A DNA stretch of 64,000 nucleotides from a virus, in the IMG/VR virus record IMGVR_UViG_3300042922_000923, positions 1 through 64,000 of that record. The stretch is one strand, 5' to 3'. Position numbers and translations under genes: made by a program. The notes beneath the pieces were generated by a model. It was not told the origin of the DNA. It saw nothing but the letters and a program-made list of their open reading frames with translations, and ran no database searches. The first letter of the stretch is position 1. Each line of letters starts with the position of its first letter. Below are positions 5,207-12,846 of the stretch, in pieces.

Positions 5207-6013
5207 TTATTTAACCTTGTATCTACCTGCTTCTTTCTTTCCTTTTCCTTTTACAAAGCTGTCTATCCATCTAATTAAACCACTAGCATAAAATCTATAA
5301 TGCCCTGCTACTCCCCAGGATTCTGTATGTCTCATATAAGAGATAAAAGACTTTATATTAGTAGTTGAAGCTGTAAAAACATAAACAACTTTGTCATCAT
5401 TTATAACCTGTACCTTTTTAGTTCTAGAAGCAATTTTCTTCTTATTAGGATCTACCTTATACTTCATACCACCAGCTTCCTTGTATACTGTTTCTCTATC
5501 CATTTGAATTAAGGATATGTACATTAATGAAAATAATGCCAAACAACTTAATCTAGTTGATAAGGATTTAGCTACTTTTTGTCTATATTCATCTAGCATA
5601 GTTCCAATAACAGGGTTTTTAGTTTCTTCAGTATATACTAAAGGTTTGACAGCAGGCTTATATTTTGAGATATCAATATTTGCTGCGCAAAGTCCTACCG
5701 TTGTACCTATAGCATCTACGTTCATAGTAGCTTCTATATGAAACTTTGGAAATTCCCCTGTGTCATCTACTTTAAAATAAATATAATTCTTACATGTACC
5801 AGAAAACATAAAACTAGGTAATTCTATATTATCCATCATGTCTTCCCTTAAAATTAATACACCTTCCTTAATAGGAAAATTAAATGAATCTACAAGAACA
5901 TCTTTTTTTGAATCCACGTAGTCTTGTATATCTTGTATACTCTTACTTGTTAGGTCAATAGTTGAATAACCCCTAAGTTCTGCTAATGATTTAAACTTTC
6001 CATCAAATTTCAT
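5207..6013 (-). CDS. Hypothetical phage protein with C-terminal W-x-V-x-GH-x-R motif
   Basis: 268 aa; WGVAGHYR...WIDSFVKG; has its own sigma-A-like promoter. Confidence 0.6.
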   Translation of the reverse strand: MKFDGKFKSLAELRGYSTIDLTSKSIQDIQDYVDSKKDVLVDSFNFPIKEGVLILREDMMDNIELPSFMFSGTCKNYIYFKVDDTGEFPKFHIEATMNVDAIGTTVGLCAANIDISKYKPAVKPLVYTEETKNPVIGTMLDEYRQKVAKSLSTRLSCLALFSLMYISLIQMDRETVYKEAGGMKYKVDPNKKKIASRTKKVQVINDDKVVYVFTASTTNIKSFISYMRHTESWGVAGHYRFYASGLIRWIDSFVKGKGKKEAGRYKVK

Positions 6014-6043
6014 TTATTTATCACTCTCTCTTTCATTAACTAT

Positions 6044-6072
6044 ATTATACCCAAAGTTACACGTAAGTGCAA
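6044..6072 (-). promoter_or_regulatory. Sigma-A-like promoter TTGCAC-N17-TATAAT containing a 16-bp operator
   Basis: Minus strand TTGCACttacgtgtaactttgggTATAAT. Confidence 0.65.
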
Positions 6073-6222
6073 TACCTTTTTATAAACTTTTTTAATAAAT
6101 TTTGGAATTTTTTAATAGTATCTTGAATCAAGCACAATCTTAATCTTAGCATAGTTTAGTTTACATAACTTTTACTATGTATAGACCTTTAGAAAAGAAT
6201 AAAGAGGTTGTACCTCTTTAAT

Positions 6223-8664
6223 TCATTTAGTATTGCTTTCTACCTCCTTAGCATTTTTAATAACCAGAGCTTTAGCTTCTTTGCTTTTGTTACGCTCAAC
6301 AGTATCTAAATATTTTGGTGGAAGTTTTGTAATAAACCTAGCAAATCCATCATTACACTTTATTAGGTTTAAACTGCTATATCTAGGCAATGTAAGTAGA
6401 TCCTCTAGTTCAAATGGTGCTAGTTCCTCTTTTAATTCATCATAGTTTGCCTTATCACAGCCACTTACCATGACGTAGCTTGTGTTAGCATTTTTAAGCT
6501 CTGGTCTAATATACTTAATTTGTTCTAAGCTGTGGCATGAGATAATAGGCTTACAAGTCTTCTTAGCAATTCTATTAATATGCTTCTTGAGAAGTGATTG
6601 ACAATCAGGTATTTGATATAATTCATCAAAAATTATATTAACTTTAGTTCTTTCATGCTCTGGAATATTAACATGTCTTATTTGTAGTGCACCAAGTATC
6701 TTTGTTAACCAGTAAGTGCAATAAACATCACGCTCTGGATCTGTAGGGAACATTTCCTCTGGCATACGTAAACAGATTAGTTGAGGCTTTTGCATTTCTA
6801 TAACTAAATCTATATTATTAGTACAATCCTTTTTAAGCATTAATTCTGTATAAGTGTTGTCTTTAATAGCATCAATTCTATTTAGAATACCTTGTATTTT
6901 AGTACCCTGAGTTCCTATAATTTGTGGAGGATTATCTTTAGTTCCATTAGACCATTTATCTAATTCTTCTAGATATCCAAGGTATTCCTCCAAATTCTCT
7001 AGCTGATTCTGTGGAACTTTTTCAATATAGTCATGTCTTTTTACATGATTCTCTAGAACTCCAAATACATCTTTAATTGGACCATTATTAATAAAAACTA
7101 CATAAGAGGCTGCTTTTAAGTACCTCTTCATTTGTGGTTCTAATTTAGTATCTGCATTTATAGAATCAATAAATGTTACTAACTGTTGAGCTTTCATTTT
7201 GGTACATTTATATACCTCAAACATGCTATCATTCTTAGGCTTAATTTCATTATATCCTAACCCTTGTAACTGCTCATATTTAGAACAATCTATGCTAAGA
7301 ACTTTATTTTTTGGGACATGCTTTGAAATTTCATCAGATACTTCACAATTACCACAAAAATCAAAGTTTATTACTGTCTCATTTGCTAATACTGCATCCT
7401 CAACTAAATGACAGATTAGATTAGTTTTTCCTGCTCTAGTTGGCCCTATGATACACAAAGTTAAATTTCTATAGTCAAAGTCAGTAGATAAATAAGCTTT
7501 AGTTGGAAATCCATGATATACATTGGTTCCAATACACATAACTCCCTCTTTAAGTTCATCTGGAACCTGTGTTTCTGTATTATTTATTGCAGTTATTTTA
7601 CCGTATTCAGATAGAATACTTCTTCCCGGGATCTGTAAAAACTCTGCTGCTTCATTTATACTCATAGTGTTCATTTGAATGTTAGGCCAAATATCTTCTA
7701 CAAATAATTTTTTCATCTTTTTTCTTGAATATATAAGCTCATTATTAGCTTCTTGTCCCATTACTCCAAAACCATGACAAGCACTTATAGCATTGTCTCT
7801 ACGTCTGTCTCTATCTTTAGAATCAGAAATCACTGCAATTTGAGTATTTATAACATCTAAATCTTTTTTATCTGTCGTAGCCTTTTGTAGCTTTTTACGC
7901 TCTTCACATAAGCTATTTATATCGGCCCATAGCGAATCAGCTGCTTTTTCCTGACTTCCTCCTGTGAAGTCATCAAGTACCTTTAGAAAATCTGAAAAAA
8001 GTTTTGCTGAAGTTAATACTGTAGATTTTGCTATATATTCTAGTGAAGTTTGTTTCTTATCAACAACTTTGAGATCATCTATTTTTCTCATTGTCCTATT
8101 GTACGTAGTTTGCCAACCAAATTGGCTACGAGGTATAAAATTATACACAATAGCAACTCTATCATCTTCTTTCATAATATCTATTACACTTAATATACTT
8201 CTAAGTGGTTCTATGGTCCTTTGGTCTGTATGAAGAGAAAGTGCATCCTCCTTTTTGTAAGCCATTTGATATACTTCAATGTCATTTGAAAAAGGTTTTA
8301 TTTTTTCATCTAATATTTTAACTGTAGCTCTAGGCCAGATTAATTTAACTTTATCCTCTAGCTGTTTTTCAAACCGTTCTGGAACAATAAAATAAAAGCT
8401 TGCATTACCATTTTGTATATCCATCATAAATGATATTTTATAGCTAGTTTCAAATTTTATCTTCTTTCGTTCTCTTTGAATACGCTTATCTAAGGATCTA
8501 TAAGTGTGAGCTATAGCCTTTGCAAGTGGTATACTATTAAATTCGCCTATAGACTTATGAGTTATAATTTGAAGATACTTATAGTTTGGATTAACTAGTT
8601 CAAAATAGTCTGATAACTTTATAGAACGCTCTTTTTTAAATATAGCTGCTGGAGAGAAATTCAT
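6223..8664 (-). CDS. VirB4/VirD4(TraG)/HerA-class P-loop ATPase
   Basis: 813 aa; Walker A IIGPTRAGKT, Walker B IIFDE, SCHSLEQ motif, C-terminal LPRY...FITKLPP. Confidence 0.75.
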   Translation of the reverse strand: MNFSPAAIFKKERSIKLSDYFELVNPNYKYLQIITHKSIGEFNSIPLAKAIAHTYRSLDKRIQRERKKIKFETSYKISFMMDIQNGNASFYFIVPERFEKQLEDKVKLIWPRATVKILDEKIKPFSNDIEVYQMAYKKEDALSLHTDQRTIEPLRSILSVIDIMKEDDRVAIVYNFIPRSQFGWQTTYNRTMRKIDDLKVVDKKQTSLEYIAKSTVLTSAKLFSDFLKVLDDFTGGSQEKAADSLWADINSLCEERKKLQKATTDKKDLDVINTQIAVISDSKDRDRRRDNAISACHGFGVMGQEANNELIYSRKKMKKLFVEDIWPNIQMNTMSINEAAEFLQIPGRSILSEYGKITAINNTETQVPDELKEGVMCIGTNVYHGFPTKAYLSTDFDYRNLTLCIIGPTRAGKTNLICHLVEDAVLANETVINFDFCGNCEVSDEISKHVPKNKVLSIDCSKYEQLQGLGYNEIKPKNDSMFEVYKCTKMKAQQLVTFIDSINADTKLEPQMKRYLKAASYVVFINNGPIKDVFGVLENHVKRHDYIEKVPQNQLENLEEYLGYLEELDKWSNGTKDNPPQIIGTQGTKIQGILNRIDAIKDNTYTELMLKKDCTNNIDLVIEMQKPQLICLRMPEEMFPTDPERDVYCTYWLTKILGALQIRHVNIPEHERTKVNIIFDELYQIPDCQSLLKKHINRIAKKTCKPIISCHSLEQIKYIRPELKNANTSYVMVSGCDKANYDELKEELAPFELEDLLTLPRYSSLNLIKCNDGFARFITKLPPKYLDTVERNKSKEAKALVIKNAKEVESNTK

Positions 8665-8921
8665 TATAAAACCTCCTTTATAGCTCTTAATATAAAGAAT
8701 ATTGCTACAGATAACGTTGAATACTTAGCAGCCTTTTTCTGGCCACACATGTAGCATAGAAGGGATATTAAACAAACTAGTAAGCATATCCAATAAGAAT
8801 TATCTATAACACCTATTAGGATTCCCCTAAGCACATCTCCTATGACACCTTGTATCCAGCTTACAACTCGTTCCTTACTTGCCTCTAATGCCTCTGATGC
8901 TGTTTTTACTACAACTTCCAT
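8664..8921 (-). CDS. Small membrane protein (VirB3-like position)
   Basis: Two hydrophobic helices; overlaps ATPase start. Confidence 0.55.
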   Translation of the reverse strand: MEVVVKTASEALEASKERVVSWIQGVIGDVLRGILIGVIDNSYWICLLVCLISLLCYMCGQKKAAKYSTLSVAIFFILRAIKEVL

Positions 8922-8932
8922 ATCTGCACCTC

Positions 8933-9370
8933 CTAAAATGTTTCATCTATAAGATTAAATAGCCAAGGAATTAATTTAACAACTAAATAAGCAATCAAAT
9001 ATTTCATACCTATTTGTGGAATTTCTTCTCTTCTCTTAGCAATTAGGCTTTTTCCAATCTCTAGGATACATGCTATTATACAAATCTTACCTATACTGAA
9101 TTGGAGAATAGTAATTATTTTTGAACTAGCAGCACCGACTCTTCCCATTGCCTCAGCTGCACTTTTATCTTCTGCAAAAGCCTGAACACACATCATTGAT
9201 AATGCTAAGGAGAAAACACACACTTTTCTAAGATTCTCATTCTTTAATATTTTACCTGCAATATCCTCATACTTCTTAACATTTTTATCTCTTATTATTT
9301 CATTAAGGGTAACATTTCCTCTTTCCATTTCAAAAAATTCATTGAAGCTCATTGTTAATGCTGTACTCAT
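8933..9370 (-). CDS. VirB2/TrbC pilin-like membrane protein
   Basis: Leader motif, hydrophobic segment ending AFA, two further helices (KYLIAYLVVKLIPWLF). Confidence 0.55.
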   Translation of the reverse strand: MSTALTMSFNEFFEMERGNVTLNEIIRDKNVKKYEDIAGKILKNENLRKVCVFSLALSMMCVQAFAEDKSAAEAMGRVGAASSKIITILQFSIGKICIIACILEIGKSLIAKRREEIPQIGMKYLIAYLVVKLIPWLFNLIDETF

Positions 9371-9385
9371 AATTTCAAACTCCCC

Positions 9386-9718
9386 CTATAATATTGCTGT
9401 AAACAGCTTATATCCAAATTTTATAGTTTCAGTTGTTAATTTATAAAGAAGATCAAAACCTTCTTTTAATAATTCCTTTTGAGCTTCAGGTGAACTATCT
9501 CTAGCAAAAACCTGTGCTGTTTCAGATGGTGTAATCAAGTAATAACTTGATATAGTTCCTGCTATAATGGTAATAGCTACAAGTTTACTTGCTTGCTCTG
9601 GAGTAAGGTGTGGTACATTGTCTAGAAAACTTCCTGAATCCTTTAAATCACTATACTTAATTTCGTTCCTTTGAACTTTCATAAAATCATGAATACTCAT
9701 TGTAATCTCTTTTTTCAT
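9386..9718 (-). CDS. Membrane protein with shared TMSxxxF..RG leader
   Basis: Paralogous N-terminus, one TM helix, VFA motif. Confidence 0.6.
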   Translation of the reverse strand: MKKEITMSIHDFMKVQRNEIKYSDLKDSGSFLDNVPHLTPEQASKLVAITIIAGTISSYYLITPSETAQVFARDSSPEAQKELLKEGFDLLYKLTTETIKFGYKLFTAIL

Positions 9719-9730
9719 AACTTCTTCTCC

Positions 9731-10027
9731 TTATAAAATTGATGCTGTTGATGTGATAACCTCATAGGCTACCTCTAGTAATACTGCTGTTGTGATATAT
9801 AAAACTTCTATTGCACTTACTGTATTATTTGTATCTAGTGCCATAGCTTTTACTGGTAGAGGTAAAGACATAGGCATGAAACAAACTAAAGATATTAGTA
9901 GTAACCTTGTTTTTAAATTTAATTCTGAAGGAACCTTTAAGTCTGTTACTGATAAATTTCCTCTGTTTATTTCCATAAATTCGTGAATTGACATTGTAAT
10001 TTCCTTTCTCATTTTAATAGCCTCCAT
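9731..10027 (-). CDS. Membrane protein with shared TMSxxxF..RG leader
   Basis: Paralogous N-terminus, hydrophobic segment, AMA motif. Confidence 0.6.
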   Translation of the reverse strand: MEAIKMRKEITMSIHEFMEINRGNLSVTDLKVPSELNLKTRLLLISLVCFMPMSLPLPVKAMALDTNNTVSAIEVLYITTAVLLEVAYEVITSTASIL

Positions 10028-10066
10028 GCATAATATTTATTTTAATTGACATACTAAGTTTATAAA

Positions 10067-10609
10067 TTAAATTTGACGTAGAATATCTAAACTATTAGAA
10101 TAAGCTACTTGTTCCATCATTGAGCTAAAAGCTAAAGTAACATCAGGCATATGAAGATTTGGAATAGTTTCTAGTATTAACTTAAAGAAGTCATCTGCAA
10201 AGTAGACTGTACAAAAAGCTAGTCCATATTTTAAAACTTCAGATGGTATGCTTTTCCAGAATCTATTTTTTATAGCAGCTCTAACTTCATGTATGCCTGC
10301 AAATGCACAAGTTCCATAGGTTATATTTTTAATAACATTTAATAGAATCTCAGGTTTTGGTACAGTTACTATCTGCTCAGTGGATAATGAAGAAGCTGGA
10401 ATTGCAGTAGTAGCAAATGTAACTGTTGGGTTAGCTATAGCACATACTGTAGCTAATATAGCAACTGAGACAGCATATTTAAAATCGTCATTATTTACTA
10501 TTTTTTCAAAAGGAGTTTCTAATCCATTCTCCTTAATTATTTCATTTACTGTTAAATTTCCACGTTCCATTTCCATAAATTGACTTATTGACATTGTTAC
10601 TTTTTTCAT
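10067..10609 (-). CDS. Pilin-like membrane protein with shared leader
   Basis: Full-length similarity to 8933..9370 (IP..(V/G).KY..A(F/Y)), TFA motif. Confidence 0.6.
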   Translation of the reverse strand: MKKVTMSISQFMEMERGNLTVNEIIKENGLETPFEKIVNNDDFKYAVSVAILATVCAIANPTVTFATTAIPASSLSTEQIVTVPKPEILLNVIKNITYGTCAFAGIHEVRAAIKNRFWKSIPSEVLKYGLAFCTVYFADDFFKLILETIPNLHMPDVTLAFSSMMEQVAYSNSLDILRQI

Positions 10610-10708
10610 TTTTATTCCTCCAGAATTAAATTATTTTTTTTGAATTTACGAATAATTAAAATTAAAATGGTTAAACTAATATCATAAAATTAAAGCGAGG
10701 TGATTATT

Positions 10709-10777
10709 ATGTTCTCTTTCGTAGTTGGCGCAAGTTTCATGTATGCCTTAGCAGAAGCTGCTTGTAGATTTTTCTAA
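10709..10777 (+). CDS. 22-aa hydrophobic peptide
   Basis: GAGGTGA RBS then MFSFVVGASFMYALAEAACRFF; plus-strand terminator downstream. Confidence 0.55.
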   Translation: MFSFVVGASFMYALAEAACRFF

Positions 10778-10892
10778 TTCTTAATATTTTCTTAAGATTT
10801 ATATAGATATACACAAAACTGGAACCTTTCGCTTTTGCCCTGCATATGCTAACGTGTAGCGTAACGCAGTGAGCAGAGCGAGTTAGCTTACT

Positions 10893-10930
10893 GGCCTAAG
10901 TCTGCATATGTGGATTTAGGCTTATTTTTT
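10893..10930 (+). terminator. Plus-strand terminator
   Basis: CCTAAGTCTGCAT/ATGTGGATTTAGG stem whose mismatches are G·U only on the plus strand, followed by a T-run. Confidence 0.55.
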
Positions 10931-11012
10931 ACCAAAAATGCTTTTTTTAAGCATATTTTTATGGAAATATATGGTTTTCGTTAGACCTTAACTGACTTTA
11001 AAATTACATAAA

Positions 11013-11207
11013 TTATTCTGTACTTTGTTCTTTAGTATTATTAGAATGTTTGTGTTTTTCCATATCTTCTCTTATTAAGCCTTTAACATAGTAGCTAAAA
11101 TCTTTCCCTTCTAGATACTTCAGCATGTCATCTTCTGTCTTTTTAAAGCTCACCGTTTTTGCTGGTGGCCTGTCTTTCTTTTTCCCCTGAGTTGTCTTAG
11201 TATTCAT
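11013..11207 (-). CDS. Ribbon-helix-helix DNA-binding protein
   Basis: KTVSFK...FSYYVKGLIREDM pattern. Confidence 0.65.
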   Translation of the reverse strand: MNTKTTQGKKKDRPPAKTVSFKKTEDDMLKYLEGKDFSYYVKGLIREDMEKHKHSNNTKEQSTE

Positions 11208-11346
11208 TGTTTGTCCTCCTAATGTCTTTTGATAATATATCTTATACAGAAGTTCACTGAAATGTGCAGTAATTTCATGAAATTTTTTGAAATTTCAATA
11301 AAAATTTGTATAAAAAAAGGTGCTGCCTTTGCAACACCTTTAAAAA

Positions 11347-11571
11347 TCAGGTTCCTATAATTTCATCAATAGAAGTCAGTACCTTTTCATTCTTTACTTT
11401 TTGTTCGTTTTCCTCTTTTTTAGGTTCTATTTGAACACTTTTGCAGTTGTCTAAGTCATTATTTATCAAATAATTGATGTAATTACTGAAGTCAAAGCCA
11501 CGTTCTTTAGCTTTGGTTTCTGCTTTTTGCAAAATATTAGTATCTAAACTGATATTTTTACTTTTTTTCAA
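11347..11571 (-). CDS. ParR-like RHH partition adaptor
   Basis: SKNISLD...FSNYINYLINND RHH with acidic/hydrophobic tail; coupled to parM. Confidence 0.7.
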   Translation of the reverse strand: MKKSKNISLDTNILQKAETKAKERGFDFSNYINYLINNDLDNCKSVQIEPKKEENEQKVKNEKVLTSIDEIIGT

Positions 11572-12460
11572 ACTTGCTCACTCCTACCTGATAGAACGCT
11601 TTAGCGTTTAGGTATATATCATCCTTTTTAACTGGTTCCGGTAAGTATTTCTTTAGATCCCATGAACCACCACCCATAAAGTTTCTTATAGATGTATGAT
11701 ATTCCTTAAATCTATTAACAACATTCATAATAATTTCATCTGTGTGATCCTGAAGTATTTTATCTATGAGATTAGTTACATCAATATCTTTACCATCAAC
11801 AATAATTTTATTATCCTTTATAATTTTTACAGCTCTTAAAGTATCATAGGATACTCTATGCTTTGCTTTAATAGCTTGTACAACTTTATCATAGAGCTTT
11901 AACATGCCTAGTTCAAATGTTCCAGTCTTAACTAGTGTAAGGTCATTAAATAAGCTTACATCAACAGTAAGACCTCCAATATCTATAACAATGTTATCAG
12001 TTCCTTCAAAGTCTTGAGGGTTTAAAATAAATAATCCTGCTGACTGTGGAAATACAATACACTTTCTAATTGTAAAACGTTTTGGTACATTATTGATTAC
12101 AATAGTCTCAGTAATATCCTCTAAGCTCTCCATTAGCTCTTGTTTCTGATCCTGAAAGTACTCAGCTGGAAGACCAGTAATAAGATAAATATCAGCTACA
12201 GTATCATTTTTCATTTGTCTTGCTATTGCTGTAAATAAGCATAGCCTAAAAATTGGATCTTGAATCTTATTAAGTGCAGTACTAAATTTTCCTGACCTTT
12301 CTCCAATAGTATAGCTCTTTCCATTGTGTTCTATTTTTATAGCTTTTTTATTTACCTCATTTGTACCTTCTACAAGTGTACTTAAAAATATGTCTGTTCC
12401 CTTTGCTCCACATACTTTTGTATGTAGATATCCTACATCAATACCTAAAATATAGCTCAT
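11558..12460 (-). CDS. parM: ParM/StbA actin-like partition ATPase
   Basis: GIDVGYLHTK, TGLP, PQSAG, IDIGGLTVD, GGGS actin-fold motifs. Confidence 0.9.
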   Translation of the reverse strand: MSYILGIDVGYLHTKVCGAKGTDIFLSTLVEGTNEVNKKAIKIEHNGKSYTIGERSGKFSTALNKIQDPIFRLCLFTAIARQMKNDTVADIYLITGLPAEYFQDQKQELMESLEDITETIVINNVPKRFTIRKCIVFPQSAGLFILNPQDFEGTDNIVIDIGGLTVDVSLFNDLTLVKTGTFELGMLKLYDKVVQAIKAKHRVSYDTLRAVKIIKDNKIIVDGKDIDVTNLIDKILQDHTDEIIMNVVNRFKEYHTSIRNFMGGGSWDLKKYLPEPVKKDDIYLNAKAFYQVGVSKFEKK

Positions 12461-12481
12461 TCTAAAAATTCCTCCCTTAAA

Positions 12482-12577
12482 TTATGTGTATGTTATGCTC
12501 ATGTTATACACACATGTTTCATTATTTTATACTTCTCAAGAACATTATATGTAAATTATGCGCATGTTGTCAACATT
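12482..12577 (-). promoter_or_regulatory. parC-like centromere iterons overlapping the parM promoter
   Basis: 11-bp-period repeats TTATGTGTATG/TTATGCTCATG/TTATACACACA and TTATATGTAAA/TTATGCGCATG; minus-strand TTGACA-N18-TATAAT at 12573-12544. Confidence 0.65.
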
Positions 12578-12846
12578 TTCTGCATTAAATGCTAAAAAAA
12601 TAAGGAATAACGTAAAAGTTACACGCTATTCCTTAGAAAATAATATTTTAGTAGAACGTCTGTCTAAATATAACATATATGCTAAACTATTTCAATTTGT
12701 TACAGAAAAATTTTTATATTTCATATTTCCTTTTATAGTAAGCTGTGCTATAATAATCCTAATGAATGTACTAATTCATAAATTAATTTCTCATTTGCCC
12801 TCATGCAAAAAACAGTAGTTGGTAGGCTACTGTTTTTTATTTGCTG

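What the first reader, a model, noticed from the sequence alone, without database searches (positions are those of the whole stretch)
6223..11207. Minimal ATPase plus four pilin-like paralogues sharing an undescribed N-terminal leader
Seen: an RHH gene, then four membrane proteins beginning MKKVTMSISQFMEMERGNLT, MRKEITMSIHEFMEINRGNLS, MKKEITMSIHDFMKVQRNEIK and MSTALTMSFNEFFEMERGNVT. Each continues into a hydrophobic segment ending in a signal-peptidase-like TFA, AMA, VFA or AFA, with divergent C-termini. These are followed by a 2-TM protein and an 813-aa ATPase (GPTRAGKT, IIFDE) whose own N-terminus (SIKLSDYFEL) faintly echoes the leader. Known: VirB2-VirB3-VirB4 is the canonical T4SS order, but no relaxase, VirB6, VirB8 or VirB1 was recognised in this window. 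Inference: a stripped-down phage-encoded pilus, secretion or DNA-translocation machine, perhaps moving phage DNA into the forespore, in which the conserved leader is a targeting or processing signal and the paralogues are variable subunits.
Basis: partly seen in the sequence, partly recalled or inferred. Interest (0 to 1): 0.8.

Follow-up and report, generated by a model that had tools for sequence, protein, structure and literature searches.

The report
Phage VirB4 cassette with leader-tagged paralogues
A large soil phage carries a cut-down piece of bacterial conjugation machinery (four small leader-bearing membrane proteins, a tiny membrane protein and a VirB4-type motor). The cassette is already known, with its function untested, from the model phages SPP1 and SPO1; new here are the shared leader and its four-fold gene expansion.

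Summary
On the minus strand of 6223-11207 lie an RHH gene, four tandem genes with a shared N-terminal leader, a small membrane protein and an 813-aa P-loop ATPase, tightly spaced and ending at a terminator-like hairpin.

The ATPase is VirB4-class by fold. The full model's best PDB matches are R388 TrwK/VirB4. Its N-terminal domain alone matches TrwK at Z 14.5; the next match is 8.6.

A pilin-like gene precedes the ATPase in 95 of 95 non-redundant related loci. It has a long leader, an AxA site and a two-helix mature part.

The leader core (MSIxEF) recurs in distant relatives and, weakly, in SPP1 gp31.1. It is therefore ancestral and tied to this cassette. Only this phage and a few close metagenomic relatives carry several leader-bearing paralogues.

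No relaxase, VirD4, VirB6 or M23 gene was found in the 131-kb myophage genome.

The cassette matches SPP1 genes 31-32 (Godinho 2018) and the "DNA translocation operon" of SPO1 and 0305phi8-36 (Pathria 2012). It is dispensable in the laboratory there, and its function is unknown. This scan has already noted the cassette in at least 18 other genomes.

The forespore idea is untested. No sporulation-type promoter match was found here.

The parts
12478..12584 (.). parC-like iterated repeats overlapping a consensus sigma-70-type promoter (12573-12544, minus strand) in front of parM
   Evidence: family D1, 3 copies of 33 nt, spacings 63 and 11. TTGACA-18-TATAAT, 12 of 12. The parC reading is inference.
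11558..12460 (-). ParM/Alp-type actin-like partition protein (300 aa)
   Evidence: Pfam ALP_N 1.5e-20 and MreB-like_C 2.8e-13; phrog_691 'partition protein' 1.6e-51.
11347..11571 (-). RHH protein in the ParR position (74 aa); its start overlaps the end of parM by 14 nt
   Evidence: weak RHH-type hits (MatP_C, CopG_antitoxin, E about 0.02); overlap; terminator-like hairpin 11341-11316 directly after it. The ParR role is inferred from position.
11013..11207 (-). Second RHH protein (64 aa), counterpart of SPP1 gp31
   Evidence: BLASTP against SPP1 gp31, 9e-8, 43% identity over 47 aa; phrog_14312 7.5e-9. Small ORFs with the same pattern sit before the pilin-like gene in relatives (by eye).
10610..11012 (-). 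403-nt untranslated spacer before the first paralogue, with a locally GC-rich stretch
   Evidence: sequence; no Rfam match inside it; fold z-score -1.44; no sigma-70-like site of 9/12 or better on the coding strand inside it.
10067..10609 (-). Leader paralogue p180: 66-aa leader ending TFA, 114-aa mature part, pilin-like with a C-terminal extension
   Evidence: jackhmmer from p145, 7.4e-30; orthologues P0277, P0279 and P0289 at 64, 57 and 46% identity by BLASTP.
9731..10012 (-). Leader paralogue p93: 58-aa leader ending AMA, 35-aa hydrophobic mature peptide
   Evidence: orthologues P0285 and P0290 keep the C-terminal peptide.
9386..9718 (-). Leader paralogue p110: 72-aa leader ending VFA, 38-aa amphipathic mature peptide
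   Evidence: orthologue P0288.
8933..9370 (-). Leader paralogue p145: the orthologue of the family-wide pilin-like gene; 66-aa leader ending AFA, 79-aa two-helix mature part
   Evidence: Pfam TrbC/VirB2 1.9e-4, 22 bits, below the cut-off of 27.9; nearest named Atlas clusters are T4SS_pilin, TrbC and Maff2 (0.86-0.89); TM 0.53 to a TrbC/T4SS_pilin cluster; a homologue lies upstream of the ATPase in 95 of 95 loci.
8664..8921 (-). Small membrane protein (85 aa) in the VirB3 position, translationally coupled to the ATPase
   Evidence: 1-nt overlap; homologue directly upstream of the ATPase in 73 of 95 loci, fused to an M23 peptidase in 32; 0 of 37 members hit Pfam VirB3 or PrgI, so the VirB3 likeness is positional only.
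6223..8664 (-). VirB4-class ATPase (813 aa): N-terminal VirB4-type domain (about 1-360) plus C-terminal P-loop domain; no transmembrane segment
   Evidence: phrog_5156 1.8e-85, full length. Foldseek ranks 1-11 are all TrwK/VirB4. N-terminal domain, Z 14.5. C-terminal domain, Z about 26; invariant G412, K413, D680, E681 in 50 homologues; no hydrophobic segment.
6200..6220 (-). Terminator-like hairpin that ends the operon
   Evidence: 9-bp stem, 3 GC pairs, T-rich tail on the minus strand.

Best explanation
This is one more copy of a cassette that is widespread in phages, phage-plasmids and prophages of Bacillota: an RHH regulator, a pilin-like prepilin, a small membrane protein and a VirB4-class ATPase. 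The same cassette is SPP1 genes 31/31.1/31.2/32 and part of the 'DNA translocation operon' of SPO1 and 0305phi8-36. Here, as in about 4 of 10 relatives, it sits beside a ParM/ParR partition pair.

Likely working:
1. The small proteins are made with a long leader. The leader has a conserved cytoplasmic N-extension (core MSIxEF, here ITMSIxxFMEMERGNLTL), a basic stretch, a hydrophobic core and an AxA signal-peptidase-I site.
2. After insertion and cleavage, a 79-aa two-helix subunit (p145), a longer variant (p180) and two short peptides (p93, p110) remain in or at the membrane.
3. The small membrane protein docks the soluble hexameric ATPase at the membrane.
4. As VirB4 does in type IV secretion, the ATPase extracts or assembles these subunits into an envelope-spanning conduit. 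In relatives, an M23 peptidase fused to the membrane protein opens the wall.
5. The cargo is unknown. I rate phage DNA, positioned by ParMR, as the most likely.

Shown: gene order, family membership, the VirB4-type fold, the linkage of leader, pilin-like gene and ATPase, and the absence of relaxase, T4CP and VirB6 matches in this genome.

Inferred: cleavage, docking, assembly and cargo.
For: - Fold of the full ATPase: Foldseek ranks 1-11 are R388 TrwK/VirB4 chains aligned over about 840-900 columns (E 3.8e-13 to 8.1e-10). HerA, TrwB and the VirB4 C-terminal domain follow at 1e-9 to 1e-8.
- N-terminal domain folded alone (pLDDT 88.8): TrwK 7o42_A at Z 14.5, rmsd 3.4, 238 residues aligned. The next match is Z 8.6, then about 7, among 48,161 chains. 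Foldseek ranks 1-9 are all TrwK.
- Walker A and B residues are invariant in 50 homologues.
- Among 95 non-redundant loci with at least 2.5 kb upstream, a pilin-like gene is present in 95, a small membrane gene in 73 (32 fused to M23), ParM in 39 and ParA in 7 (110 loci before de-duplication).
- p145 gives a weak Pfam TrbC hit. Its nearest named Atlas clusters are all T4SS-pilin-type families.
- The loose leader motif occurs near the N-terminus in 40 of 150 family representatives, against 241 of 14,451 background ORFs. It is seen in Paenibacillus/Bacillus-type relatives.
- In SPP1, the pilin profile hits gp31.1 at 9.2e-7, the ATPase profile hits gp32 at 2.6e-39, and RHH2 matches gp31 at 9e-8.
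- Orthologues of all four paralogue types, with the leader better conserved than the mature parts, lie on other metagenomic contigs. Three types share a longest contig of 7,214 bp and three share one of 10,054 bp.
- Operon signals.
- Print: Godinho 2018, section 3.4 passages, proposes that gp32 with gp31.1/31.2 could form a translocon. Pathria 2012, passages and section 9.
Against: - No Pfam T4SS model recognises the ATPase. The best hit is AAA_14 at 24.6 bits, below its cut-off. AAA_10 and T4SS-DNA_transf searches of the genome are blank. PDB sequence searches are also blank.
- Only 1 of 45 pilin-like members hits TrbC at E<=0.01, and that hit is below the cut-off. The profile hits no solved pilin by sequence. 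Atlas scores are under 0.9, the tool's own 'lead only' range.
- 0 of 37 small membrane proteins hit VirB3 or PrgI.
- For the C-terminal domain alone, TrwB (Z 26.5), DndH-C (26.1), VirB4 (26.0) and HerA (23.4) are effectively tied.
- A working T4SS normally also needs VirB6- and VirB8-type parts. None was found, and no ORF in the genome has more than 3 hydrophobic segments.
- p93 and p110 have mature parts too short for a two-helix pilin.
- Cleavage sites were read by eye.
- The cassette is dispensable for laboratory growth in SPP1 (31.2, 32) and 0305phi8-36, so no phenotype anchors any function.
Confidence: 0.55

Rival explanations
1. Particle-independent, conjugation-like transfer of the phage or plasmid-prophage genome between cells. 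This is the 'DNA translocation operon' reading of Pathria et al. 2012, with the ATPase acting as a coupling protein.
For: - Pathria 2012 (passages): in 0305phi8-36 and SPO1 the ATPase gene adjoins a CloDF13-MobC-type relaxase-family gene.
- SPO1 gp27.3 is annotated 'replication initiation by nicking'.
- The C-terminal domain matches the coupling protein TrwB at Z 26.5.
- Some records annotate homologues as TraD/T4SS DNA-binding proteins.
- Many carriers are phage-plasmids.
Against: - No relaxase family (PF13814, PF03432, PF01076, PF02486) and no T4SS-DNA_transf match in this 131-kb genome.
- SPO1 gp27.3 found no homologue in any of the 136 loci searched.
- The downstream 268-aa gene is unrelated to gp27.3: best BLASTP E 0.19, with Atlas neighbours that are AcrVA2-like.
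- The ATPase has no membrane anchor and has a VirB4-type rather than VirD4-type N-terminal domain.
- 33 of 34 plasmid records carrying a homologue are typed non-mobilizable.
Confidence: 0.15
2. A sporulation-linked device that works with ParMR to place or move phage DNA into the forespore (virospore formation).
For: - Every named carrier is, as far as I recall, from an endospore-forming lineage. Phage records: Bacillus 42, Geobacillus 3, deep-sea Geobacillus-type phage 2, Clostridium 1, Terrisporobacter 1, of 49. Plasmids: Clostridium 31, Bacillus 2, Alicyclobacillus 1, of 34. Also 47 Bacillota genome loci. None comes from Staphylococcus, Streptococcus, Enterococcus, Listeria or lactobacilli, although these are well represented in such collections (recalled).
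- Linkage to ParM or ParA in 46 of 95 loci.
- Dispensable on vegetative lawns.
- SPO1 forms virospores, and its ParM gene 27.9 is discussed in that context (PMC12991052, passages).
Against: - There is no direct evidence.
- 0 matches to sigma-F/G/E/K consensus patterns (recalled from memory) in 10610-11346.
- VirB4 proteins are not known DNA pumps (established knowledge, recalled).
- The host restriction may simply reflect phage lineage.
- My taxon-blind test could not address it.
Confidence: 0.12
3. A HerA/FtsK-type ATPase module used for defence, superinfection exclusion or DNA processing, with the small proteins as unrelated secreted or holin-like peptides.
For: - HerA chains match the C-terminal domain at Z 18-23.
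- Weak PADLOC hit to mad8: 1.6e-6, 25.8 bits, P-loop part only.
- p93 and p110 are short, secreted-peptide-like.
Against: - The N-terminal domain's only strong match is VirB4.
- No nuclease, Sir2 or other HerA partner is adjacent, and there are no other PADLOC hits for 8 proteins.
- The pilin-like gene is present in 95 of 95 loci and is translationally linked, which argues for one machine.
Confidence: 0.08

Closest known systems
Bacillus phage SPP1 genes 31, 31.1, 31.2 and 32 (Godinho et al. 2018, PMC6316719; passages read)
   Same: Same four-gene order and homologous products:
- RHH2 against gp31, 9e-8.
- Pilin profile against gp31.1, 9.2e-7.
- Leader HMM hits gp31.1 residues 12-31 at 10.3 bits, which is weak.
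- ATPase profile against gp32, 2.6e-39.

The paper proposes a translocon built by gp32 with gp31.1/31.2, and reports that 31.2 and 32 are non-essential.
   Different: SPP1 has one leader-bearing gene, not four, and no adjacent ParMR. The paper does not use the word 'pilin' (0 occurrences). It relates only the C-terminus of gp32 to TrwB, VirB4 and FtsK.
'DNA translocation operon' of Bacillus phages 0305phi8-36 (orf200-207) and SPO1 (gp27.3-27.9) (Pathria et al. 2012, PMC3357382; passages and section 9 read)
   Same: - An actin-like gene, then small membrane proteins, then a large ATPase without a transmembrane segment (SPO1 locus).
- SPO1 gp27.4 is a homologue: tblastn 3e-6 over residues 9-550.
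- Deletion gives no laboratory phenotype.
   Different: Those phages add a relaxase-family gene and, in 0305phi8-36, a VirB6-like gene. Neither was found here. The paper reads the ATPase as a VirD4-like coupling protein, whereas the fold found here is VirB4-class.
VirB2-VirB3-VirB4 core of conjugative type IV secretion systems (R388 TrwL-TrwM-TrwK, PDB 7o42/8rtd)
   Same: Same gene order. A two-domain soluble ATPase whose N- and C-terminal domains both superpose on TrwK. The small protein has a long leader and a two-helix mature part of about 79 aa. Sizes of known pilins are recalled, not tested.
   Different: About 8-12% sequence identity. No Pfam T4SS model is passed. No VirB6, VirB8, VirB1, VirD4 or relaxase in this genome. 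Carried by a tailed phage.
Monoderm conjugation systems with T4SS_pilin/Maff2-type small proteins, a PrgI-type VirB3 and an AAA_10 VirB4 (knowledge of these systems is recalled)
   Same: The nearest named Atlas clusters of p145 are these small-protein families in Bacillota. In relatives, a wall hydrolase (M23) is fused next to the ATPase gene.
   Different: The ATPase is not an AAA_10 member. The other conjugation genes are absent.
Archaeal Ced/Ted DNA-import systems (small pilin-like and membrane proteins plus a VirB4-like ATPase; recalled, not tested here)
   Same: An example of a strongly reduced VirB2/VirB4-based machine that moves DNA without a relaxase.
   Different: No comparison was run. 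Two Thermoproteus loci matched only about 110-140 residues around the P-loop at 2e-4, which I do not count as evidence.

Membership tests
VirB4 ATPases of type IV secretion | Two-domain soluble protein: a VirB4-type N-terminal domain plus a C-terminal RecA-like P-loop domain | tested here: met
   - Full model: Foldseek ranks 1-11 are TrwK/VirB4.
- N-terminal domain alone: Z 14.5, rmsd 3.4, 238 aligned; next match 8.6.
- C-terminal domain: Z 26.0 to Thermoanaerobacter VirB4.
- No hydrophobic segment.
VirB4 ATPases of type IV secretion | Intact Walker A and Walker B motifs | tested here: met
   GPTRAGKT and IIFDE. G412, K413, D680 and E681 are invariant in 50 homologues.
VirB4 ATPases of type IV secretion | Recognised by curated sequence models (Pfam CagE_TrbE_VirB, AAA_10) | tested here: not met
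   Pfam scan at E<=1 gives only AAA_14, below its cut-off. The AAA_10 search of the genome is blank. Among the 120 homologues listed, precomputed Pfam shows PF10412 in 3, PF13173 in 2, PF01935 in 1 and none in 114.
VirB4 ATPases of type IV secretion | Encoded with other mating-pair-formation genes (VirB6, VirB8, T4CP) and a relaxase | tested here: not met
   PF04610, PF02534, PF13814, PF03432, PF01076 and PF02486 are all blank in the 131-kb genome, which is about 90% complete. No polytopic ORF.
VirB2/TrbC-type pilins | Long leader with a signal-peptidase site, and a mature part of about 70-80 aa with two hydrophobic helices | tested here: met
   Met for p145 (66-aa leader, 79-aa mature part) and for the family alignment. 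p180 is a longer variant. p93 and p110 do not fit, with mature parts of 35 and 38 aa. Read by eye, without a predictor.
VirB2/TrbC-type pilins | Sequence membership (Pfam TrbC or T4SS_pilin above the cut-off) | tested here: not met
   p145 scores 22 bits against a cut-off of 27.9. 1 of 45 members hits at E<=0.01. No solved pilin is hit by the profile. Atlas neighbours at 0.86-0.89 are leads only.
VirB2/TrbC-type pilins | Polymerises into a pilus or conduit | not testable with these tools
   Needs microscopy or biochemistry.
VirB3 / PrgI small membrane partners of VirB4 | Small membrane protein encoded directly before VirB4 and coupled to it | tested here: met
   1-nt overlap with the ATPase start. 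A homologue is directly upstream in 73 of 95 loci.
VirB3 / PrgI small membrane partners of VirB4 | Sequence membership (Pfam VirB3, PrgI) | tested here: not met
   0 of 37 members hit.
Phage cassette SPP1 31-32 / SPO1 27.x ('DNA translocation operon') | ATPase homologous to SPP1 gp32 and SPO1 gp27.4, preceded by small membrane proteins | tested here: met
   Profile against gp32, 2.6e-39; against gp31.1, 9.2e-7. tblastn to SPO1 gp27.4, 3e-6. phrog_5156, 1.8e-85.
Phage cassette SPP1 31-32 / SPO1 27.x ('DNA translocation operon') | Adjacent actin-like (ParM/MreB-like) gene, as in SPO1 and 0305phi8-36 | tested here: met
   ALP_N 1.5e-20. SPO1 synteny.
Phage cassette SPP1 31-32 / SPO1 27.x ('DNA translocation operon') | Adjacent CloDF13-MobC/Replic_Relax-type relaxase gene (SPO1 gp27.3, orf200) | tested here: not met
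   PF13814 blank. The 268-aa neighbour against gp27.3 gives E 0.19. gp27.3 has no homologue in the 136 loci.
VirD4/TraG coupling proteins | N-terminal membrane anchor and T4SS-DNA_transf/TraG signature | tested here: not met
   No hydrophobic segment. PF02534 blank. TIGR03743 TraD scores only 17.5 bits against a cut-off of 366. The C-terminal fold match to TrwB (Z 26.5) is shared with VirB4 and HerA.
HerA/FtsK translocases | HerA-type N-terminal barrel, or FtsK alpha/beta/gamma domains, with a nuclease or membrane partner | tested here: inconclusive
   C-terminal matches at Z 16-23. The best match of the N-terminal domain is VirB4, not HerA. No partner gene was seen. PADLOC gives only a weak mad8 hit.

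The most novel reading that the evidence does not exclude
The conserved N-terminal extension (core MSIxEF) is a sorting tag read on the cytoplasmic side by the VirB4-type ATPase or its small membrane partner. The cassette would then be a leader-directed export and assembly system. This phage clade has diversified it into four or five different cargo subunits. The machine works with ParMR to carry the phage genome across the sporulation septum or forespore membrane, which would explain why it is seen only in viruses and plasmids of endospore-forming bacteria.
Probability: 0.1. Interest if true: 0.85.

Novelty: new variant of a known kind. Interest (0 to 1): 0.5.

Why it matters
The only universal component of type IV secretion, VirB4, turns up with pilin-like and VirB3-like partners in hundreds of phages and prophages of Bacillota. 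These include the strictly lytic model phages SPO1 and SPP1, where the genes are dispensable in the laboratory and unexplained since 2012 and 2018.

This window adds two handles for experiments. The first is a short conserved leader motif that can be mutated or swapped. The second is a natural expansion into four leader-bearing products, which suggests that the leader, not the mature part, is what the machine recognises.

If the function is particle-independent movement of phage DNA, between cells or into spores, it would change how phage persistence and spread are understood. If not, it remains a well-defined orphan machine in tractable phages.

Tried and rejected
- **Leader echo in the ATPase N-terminus.** No ATPase ORF was hit by either leader HMM at E<=10. 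Rejected.
- **The 268-aa gene 5207-6013 as the relaxase counterpart of SPO1 gp27.3.** BLASTP best E is 0.19. There is no Pfam hit and no homologue in the 136 loci. Its Atlas neighbours are viral clusters, one with AcrVA2-like on 14% of members. A terminator-like hairpin separates it from the operon. Not part of the cassette.
- **Complex prediction of the ATPase with p145.** No verdict (scores 0.03 and 0.04; the mark is 0.32). This is evidence neither for nor against binding.
- **Expression.** No RNA holder is listed. Two soil-metagenome DNA runs hold the stretch and may be its source.
- **RNA element in the 403-nt spacer.** No Rfam match lies in it; the one weak hit of the 8-kb scan, sR52 at E 0.015, lies at 11364-11415, inside the ParR-like gene. 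The fold z-score is -1.44.
- **Host-range test with unnamed genomes.** 10 of 401 genomes of one class matched at E<=1e-20. No taxon names were shown, so this says nothing about spore-formers.
- **Sporulation promoters.** 0 matches in 10610-11346, using consensus patterns recalled from memory. This is a weak negative.
- **PDB by sequence.** Blank for the ATPase and for the pilin profile.
- **Metagenome scan.** It gave only a 2.7-kb contig for the closest relative (79% identity), with no upstream genes.
- **Papers.** I saw passages only of PMC3357382 (plus section 9), PMC6316719, PMC12991052, PMC10210947 and PMC5786514. PMC8026635 gave 0 occurrences of my terms. The papers I read name the SPP1/SPO1 cassette but describe no leader motif and no 'pilin' (0 occurrences of 'pilin' in PMC6316719). 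None of the searches was aimed at the leader. Supplements were not consulted and may hold gene tables that bear on this.

Full report
**What is there.**
All features lie on the minus strand. The order is:

- a consensus promoter (12 of 12) overlapping short iterated repeats;
- a ParM/Alp actin-like gene, 11558-12460 (Pfam ALP_N 1.5e-20; phrog_691 1.6e-51);
- an overlapping RHH gene in the ParR position, 11347-11571, followed by a terminator-like hairpin;
- a second RHH gene, 11013-11207;
- a 403-nt spacer;
- six tightly packed genes, each with a Shine-Dalgarno site and gaps of -1 to 54 nt: p180, p93, p110, p145, an 85-aa membrane protein and the 813-aa ATPase;
- a terminator-like hairpin at 6220-6200.

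The 268-aa gene downstream is a separate unit and unrelated to the cassette.

The window is the first 64 kb of a 131,110-bp viral contig from soil, estimated at about 90% complete. The contig is a myophage. It has a tail sheath (6.5e-80), portal (3.8e-72), large terminase (4.8e-152), major head protein (3.3e-132) and baseplate.

**The observation.**
The four paralogues share about 25 N-terminal residues. In single-sequence searches against 14,451 ORFs they find one another (4.7e-9 to 0.11). A leader HMM finds only these four at E<0.01.

Each leader continues into a basic stretch, a hydrophobic core and an AxA-type site. Cleavage there would leave mature parts of 114, 35, 38 and 79 aa (read by eye). 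The supposed echo of the leader at the ATPase N-terminus is not supported.

**The ATPase.**
Sequence libraries say little:

- PHROG 5156, of unknown function, matches full length at 1.8e-85.
- No Pfam or NCBIfam family is passed.
- There is no sequence match in the PDB.

An AlphaFold model built from 50 homologues (pLDDT 86.2) says more. Its eleven best Foldseek matches in the PDB are all R388 TrwK/VirB4 chains aligned over the whole length (E 3.8e-13 to 8.1e-10).

The C-terminal P-loop domain does not discriminate. TrwB scores Z 26.5, DndH-C 26.1, Thermoanaerobacter VirB4 26.0 and HerA 23.4.

The N-terminal 360 residues were therefore folded alone (pLDDT 88.8) and aligned to 48,161 representative chains. 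TrwK/VirB4 is first at Z 14.5 (rmsd 3.4, 238 residues aligned). The next match is 8.6, and the rest are about 7 or lower. Foldseek ranks 1-9 are again all TrwK.

The protein has no hydrophobic segment. Its Walker residues are invariant in the family. It is a VirB4-class ATPase by architecture and fold, but it fails the curated sequence models.

**The family and its context.**
More than 510 homologues exist.

| Collection | Records with a homologue | Breakdown |
|---|---|---|
| Named phage records | 49 | Bacillus 42, Geobacillus 3, deep-sea Geobacillus-type phage 2, Clostridium 1, Terrisporobacter 1 |
| Plasmids | 34 | Clostridium 31, Bacillus 2, Alicyclobacillus 1; 33 typed non-mobilizable |
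| Bacterial genome loci | 47 | all Bacillota |

I fetched 80 viral, 3 metagenomic and 49 genomic loci. Neighbours were scored with jackhmmer profiles. Among the 95 non-redundant loci with a full ATPase and at least 2.5 kb upstream:

- a homologue of p145 lies upstream in 95;
- a homologue of the small membrane protein lies directly before the ATPase in 73, and in 32 of these it is fused to an M23 peptidase (Pfam 9.7e-25);
- ParM is within the locus in 39 and ParA in 7;
- more than one pilin-like gene is found only in this genome.

pCBI of C. botulinum 202F and phage phiCp-D show the same order inside phage or phage-plasmid genomes.

**The small proteins.**
The family alignment shows, in order: an optional N-terminal extension, a basic patch, a signal-peptide core, an AxA site, and a mature part of about 75 aa. 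The mature part has two hydrophobic helices around a charged loop. This is the build of T-type pilins; my knowledge of VirB2, TrbC and TraA sizes is recalled.

Direct evidence of homology is thin:

- p145 hits Pfam TrbC at 1.9e-4, below the cut-off.
- Only 1 of 45 members does so.
- No solved pilin is hit by the profile.
- The nearest named clusters in the ESM Atlas are T4SS_pilin, TrbC, Maff2, DUF4134 and DUF3852, at scores of 0.86-0.89 (a lead by the tool's own standard). One TrbC/T4SS_pilin cluster matches the Atlas model at TM 0.53.

The small membrane protein resembles VirB3 only in size and position (0 of 37 Pfam hits).

**The leader.**
The core MS(I/V/F)x(E/D/Q)F(L/M) sits at residues 4-13 of the single pilin-like protein in many distant relatives, including Paenibacillus- and Bacillus-type prophages. 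A loose pattern is met by 40 of 150 family representatives, against 241 of 14,451 background ORFs. A strict pattern is met by 11 of 150, against 31 of 14,451. Other members have only the basic patch or a plain signal peptide.

SPP1 gp31.1 carries the core. The leader HMM scores 10.3 bits at residues 12-31, which is weak but at the right place. The leader is therefore an ancestral, optional part of this family's signal sequence. It is linked to the cassette and absent from the Pfam and NCBIfam hits.

Within the close clade the leader is long and strongly conserved (ITMSIxxFMEMERGNLTL; M6 and R16 invariant). It is shared by at least five product types. Orthologues of p180, p145, p93 and p110, plus a fifth 80-aa type, occur on other metagenomic contigs. 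Three types share a longest-contig length of 7,214 bp, and three share 10,054 bp. The paralogues are thus maintained genes, and the leader is under stronger constraint than the mature parts.

**What is missing.**
Searches of the whole 131-kb genome found none of the following:

- four relaxase families (PF13814, PF03432, PF01076, PF02486);
- T4SS-DNA_transf (PF02534);
- TrbL/VirB6 (PF04610);
- AAA_10 (PF12846);
- Peptidase_M23 (PF01551).

No ORF has more than three hydrophobic segments.

**What is known.**
Pathria et al. 2012 (PMC3357382; passages and section 9 read) described a "DNA translocation operon" in 0305phi8-36. It comprises a relaxase-family orf200, a VirD4-like orf201 without a membrane domain, a VirB6-like orf203 and an MreB-like orf207. 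They described its counterpart in SPO1 (gp27.3, 27.4, 27.9), and deletion had no laboratory phenotype. The SPO1 locus shows ParM-like 27.9, small membrane proteins 27.7-27.5, the ATPase 27.4 and 27.3.

Godinho et al. 2018 (PMC6316719, passages) noted that SPP1 gp32 resembles TrwB, VirB4 and FtsK in its C-terminus. They suggested it may form a translocon with the membrane proteins gp31.1 and gp31.2, and reported that 31.2 and 32 are non-essential. I confirmed the correspondence: gp31 matches RHH2 at 9e-8, gp31.1 matches the pilin profile at 9.2e-7, and gp32 matches the ATPase profile at 2.6e-39.

Earlier notes of this scan describe the same cassette in at least 18 other genomes. One of them gave me the lead to the 2018 paper.

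**Mechanism and rivals.**
I read the cassette as a reduced T4SS-type inner-membrane core. Signal-peptidase-processed pilin-like subunits would be handled by a VirB4-class ATPase that the small membrane protein docks at the membrane. In relatives a fused M23 hydrolase deals with the wall. The cargo is unknown.

- The conjugation-like reading is weakened by the lack of a relaxase and coupling protein here and in the 136 loci.
- The spore-linked reading fits the host range, the ParM linkage and dispensability on vegetative lawns. SPO1 does form virospores (PMC12991052). But it has no direct support, and no sporulation-type promoter pattern was found upstream (patterns recalled).
- A defence or HerA-type reading is weak.

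**Verdict.**
The finding is real. It is a VirB2/VirB3/VirB4-like phage cassette already noted in print and repeatedly in this scan, with function unknown. This window adds three things:

- the VirB4-type N-terminal domain;
- the conserved leader core;
- a clade-specific expansion into four leader-bearing products.

It is a new variant of a known kind, of moderate interest.

Noticed in passing
window 12478-12584: Three copies of a 33-nt unit containing ATTATG..ATGTT motifs (spacings 63 and 11 nt). They overlap a perfect TTGACA-18-TATAAT promoter in front of parM. This looks like a parC centromere with an autoregulated promoter of a ParMRC locus.
   Followed up: partly
window 5207-6013 (minus strand): A 268-aa protein just after the operon terminator. 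It matches phrog_10678. Its Atlas neighbours are viral clusters, one carrying Pfam AcrVA2-like on 14% of members, so it is a possible anti-CRISPR-type gene. It has one hydrophobic segment at about residue 151.
   Followed up: partly
window 10610-11012 (minus strand): A 403-nt spacer before the first paralogue, with a locally GC-rich stretch (about 10820-10930) in a 30% GC genome. It contains an inverted repeat that reads as a terminator only on the plus strand. It has no Rfam match, no significant fold and no sigma-70-like site on the coding strand. How the operon is transcribed is unexplained.
   Followed up: partly
window 11242-11313: Overlapping palindromes (37-nt arms, 73% complementary) just upstream of the second RHH gene. 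This is a candidate operator.
   Followed up: no
L015, L016, L019, L025, L026, L029 and others (about 6000-7000 in each locus): In 32 of 95 related loci the small membrane protein is fused to an N-terminal M23 peptidase. This gives the cassette its own wall hydrolase. The phage studied here has no M23 gene at all.
   Followed up: partly
L084 (NC_012654.1, 8534-11334 of the locus): Large Clostridium botulinum and C. sporogenes plasmids carry a distant homologue of the ATPase (about 25% identity over 88% of the query). It is preceded by an overlapping 133-aa ORF, with no other conjugation genes annotated within 9 kb.
   Followed up: no
model m4dda30b7b140 (ATPase residues 23-334): The second-best structural match of the VirB4-type N-terminal domain is a chain of the mycobacterial ESX-3 type VII secretion complex (6lar_G, Z 8.6, 153 residues aligned). 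An ESX-5 chain scores Z 6.6.
   Followed up: no
L135, L136 (Thermoproteus contigs): Two archaeal loci matched only 110-140 residues around the P-loop at E 2e-4. This is probably generic P-loop similarity. They were not checked for Ced/Ted-type neighbours.
   Followed up: no
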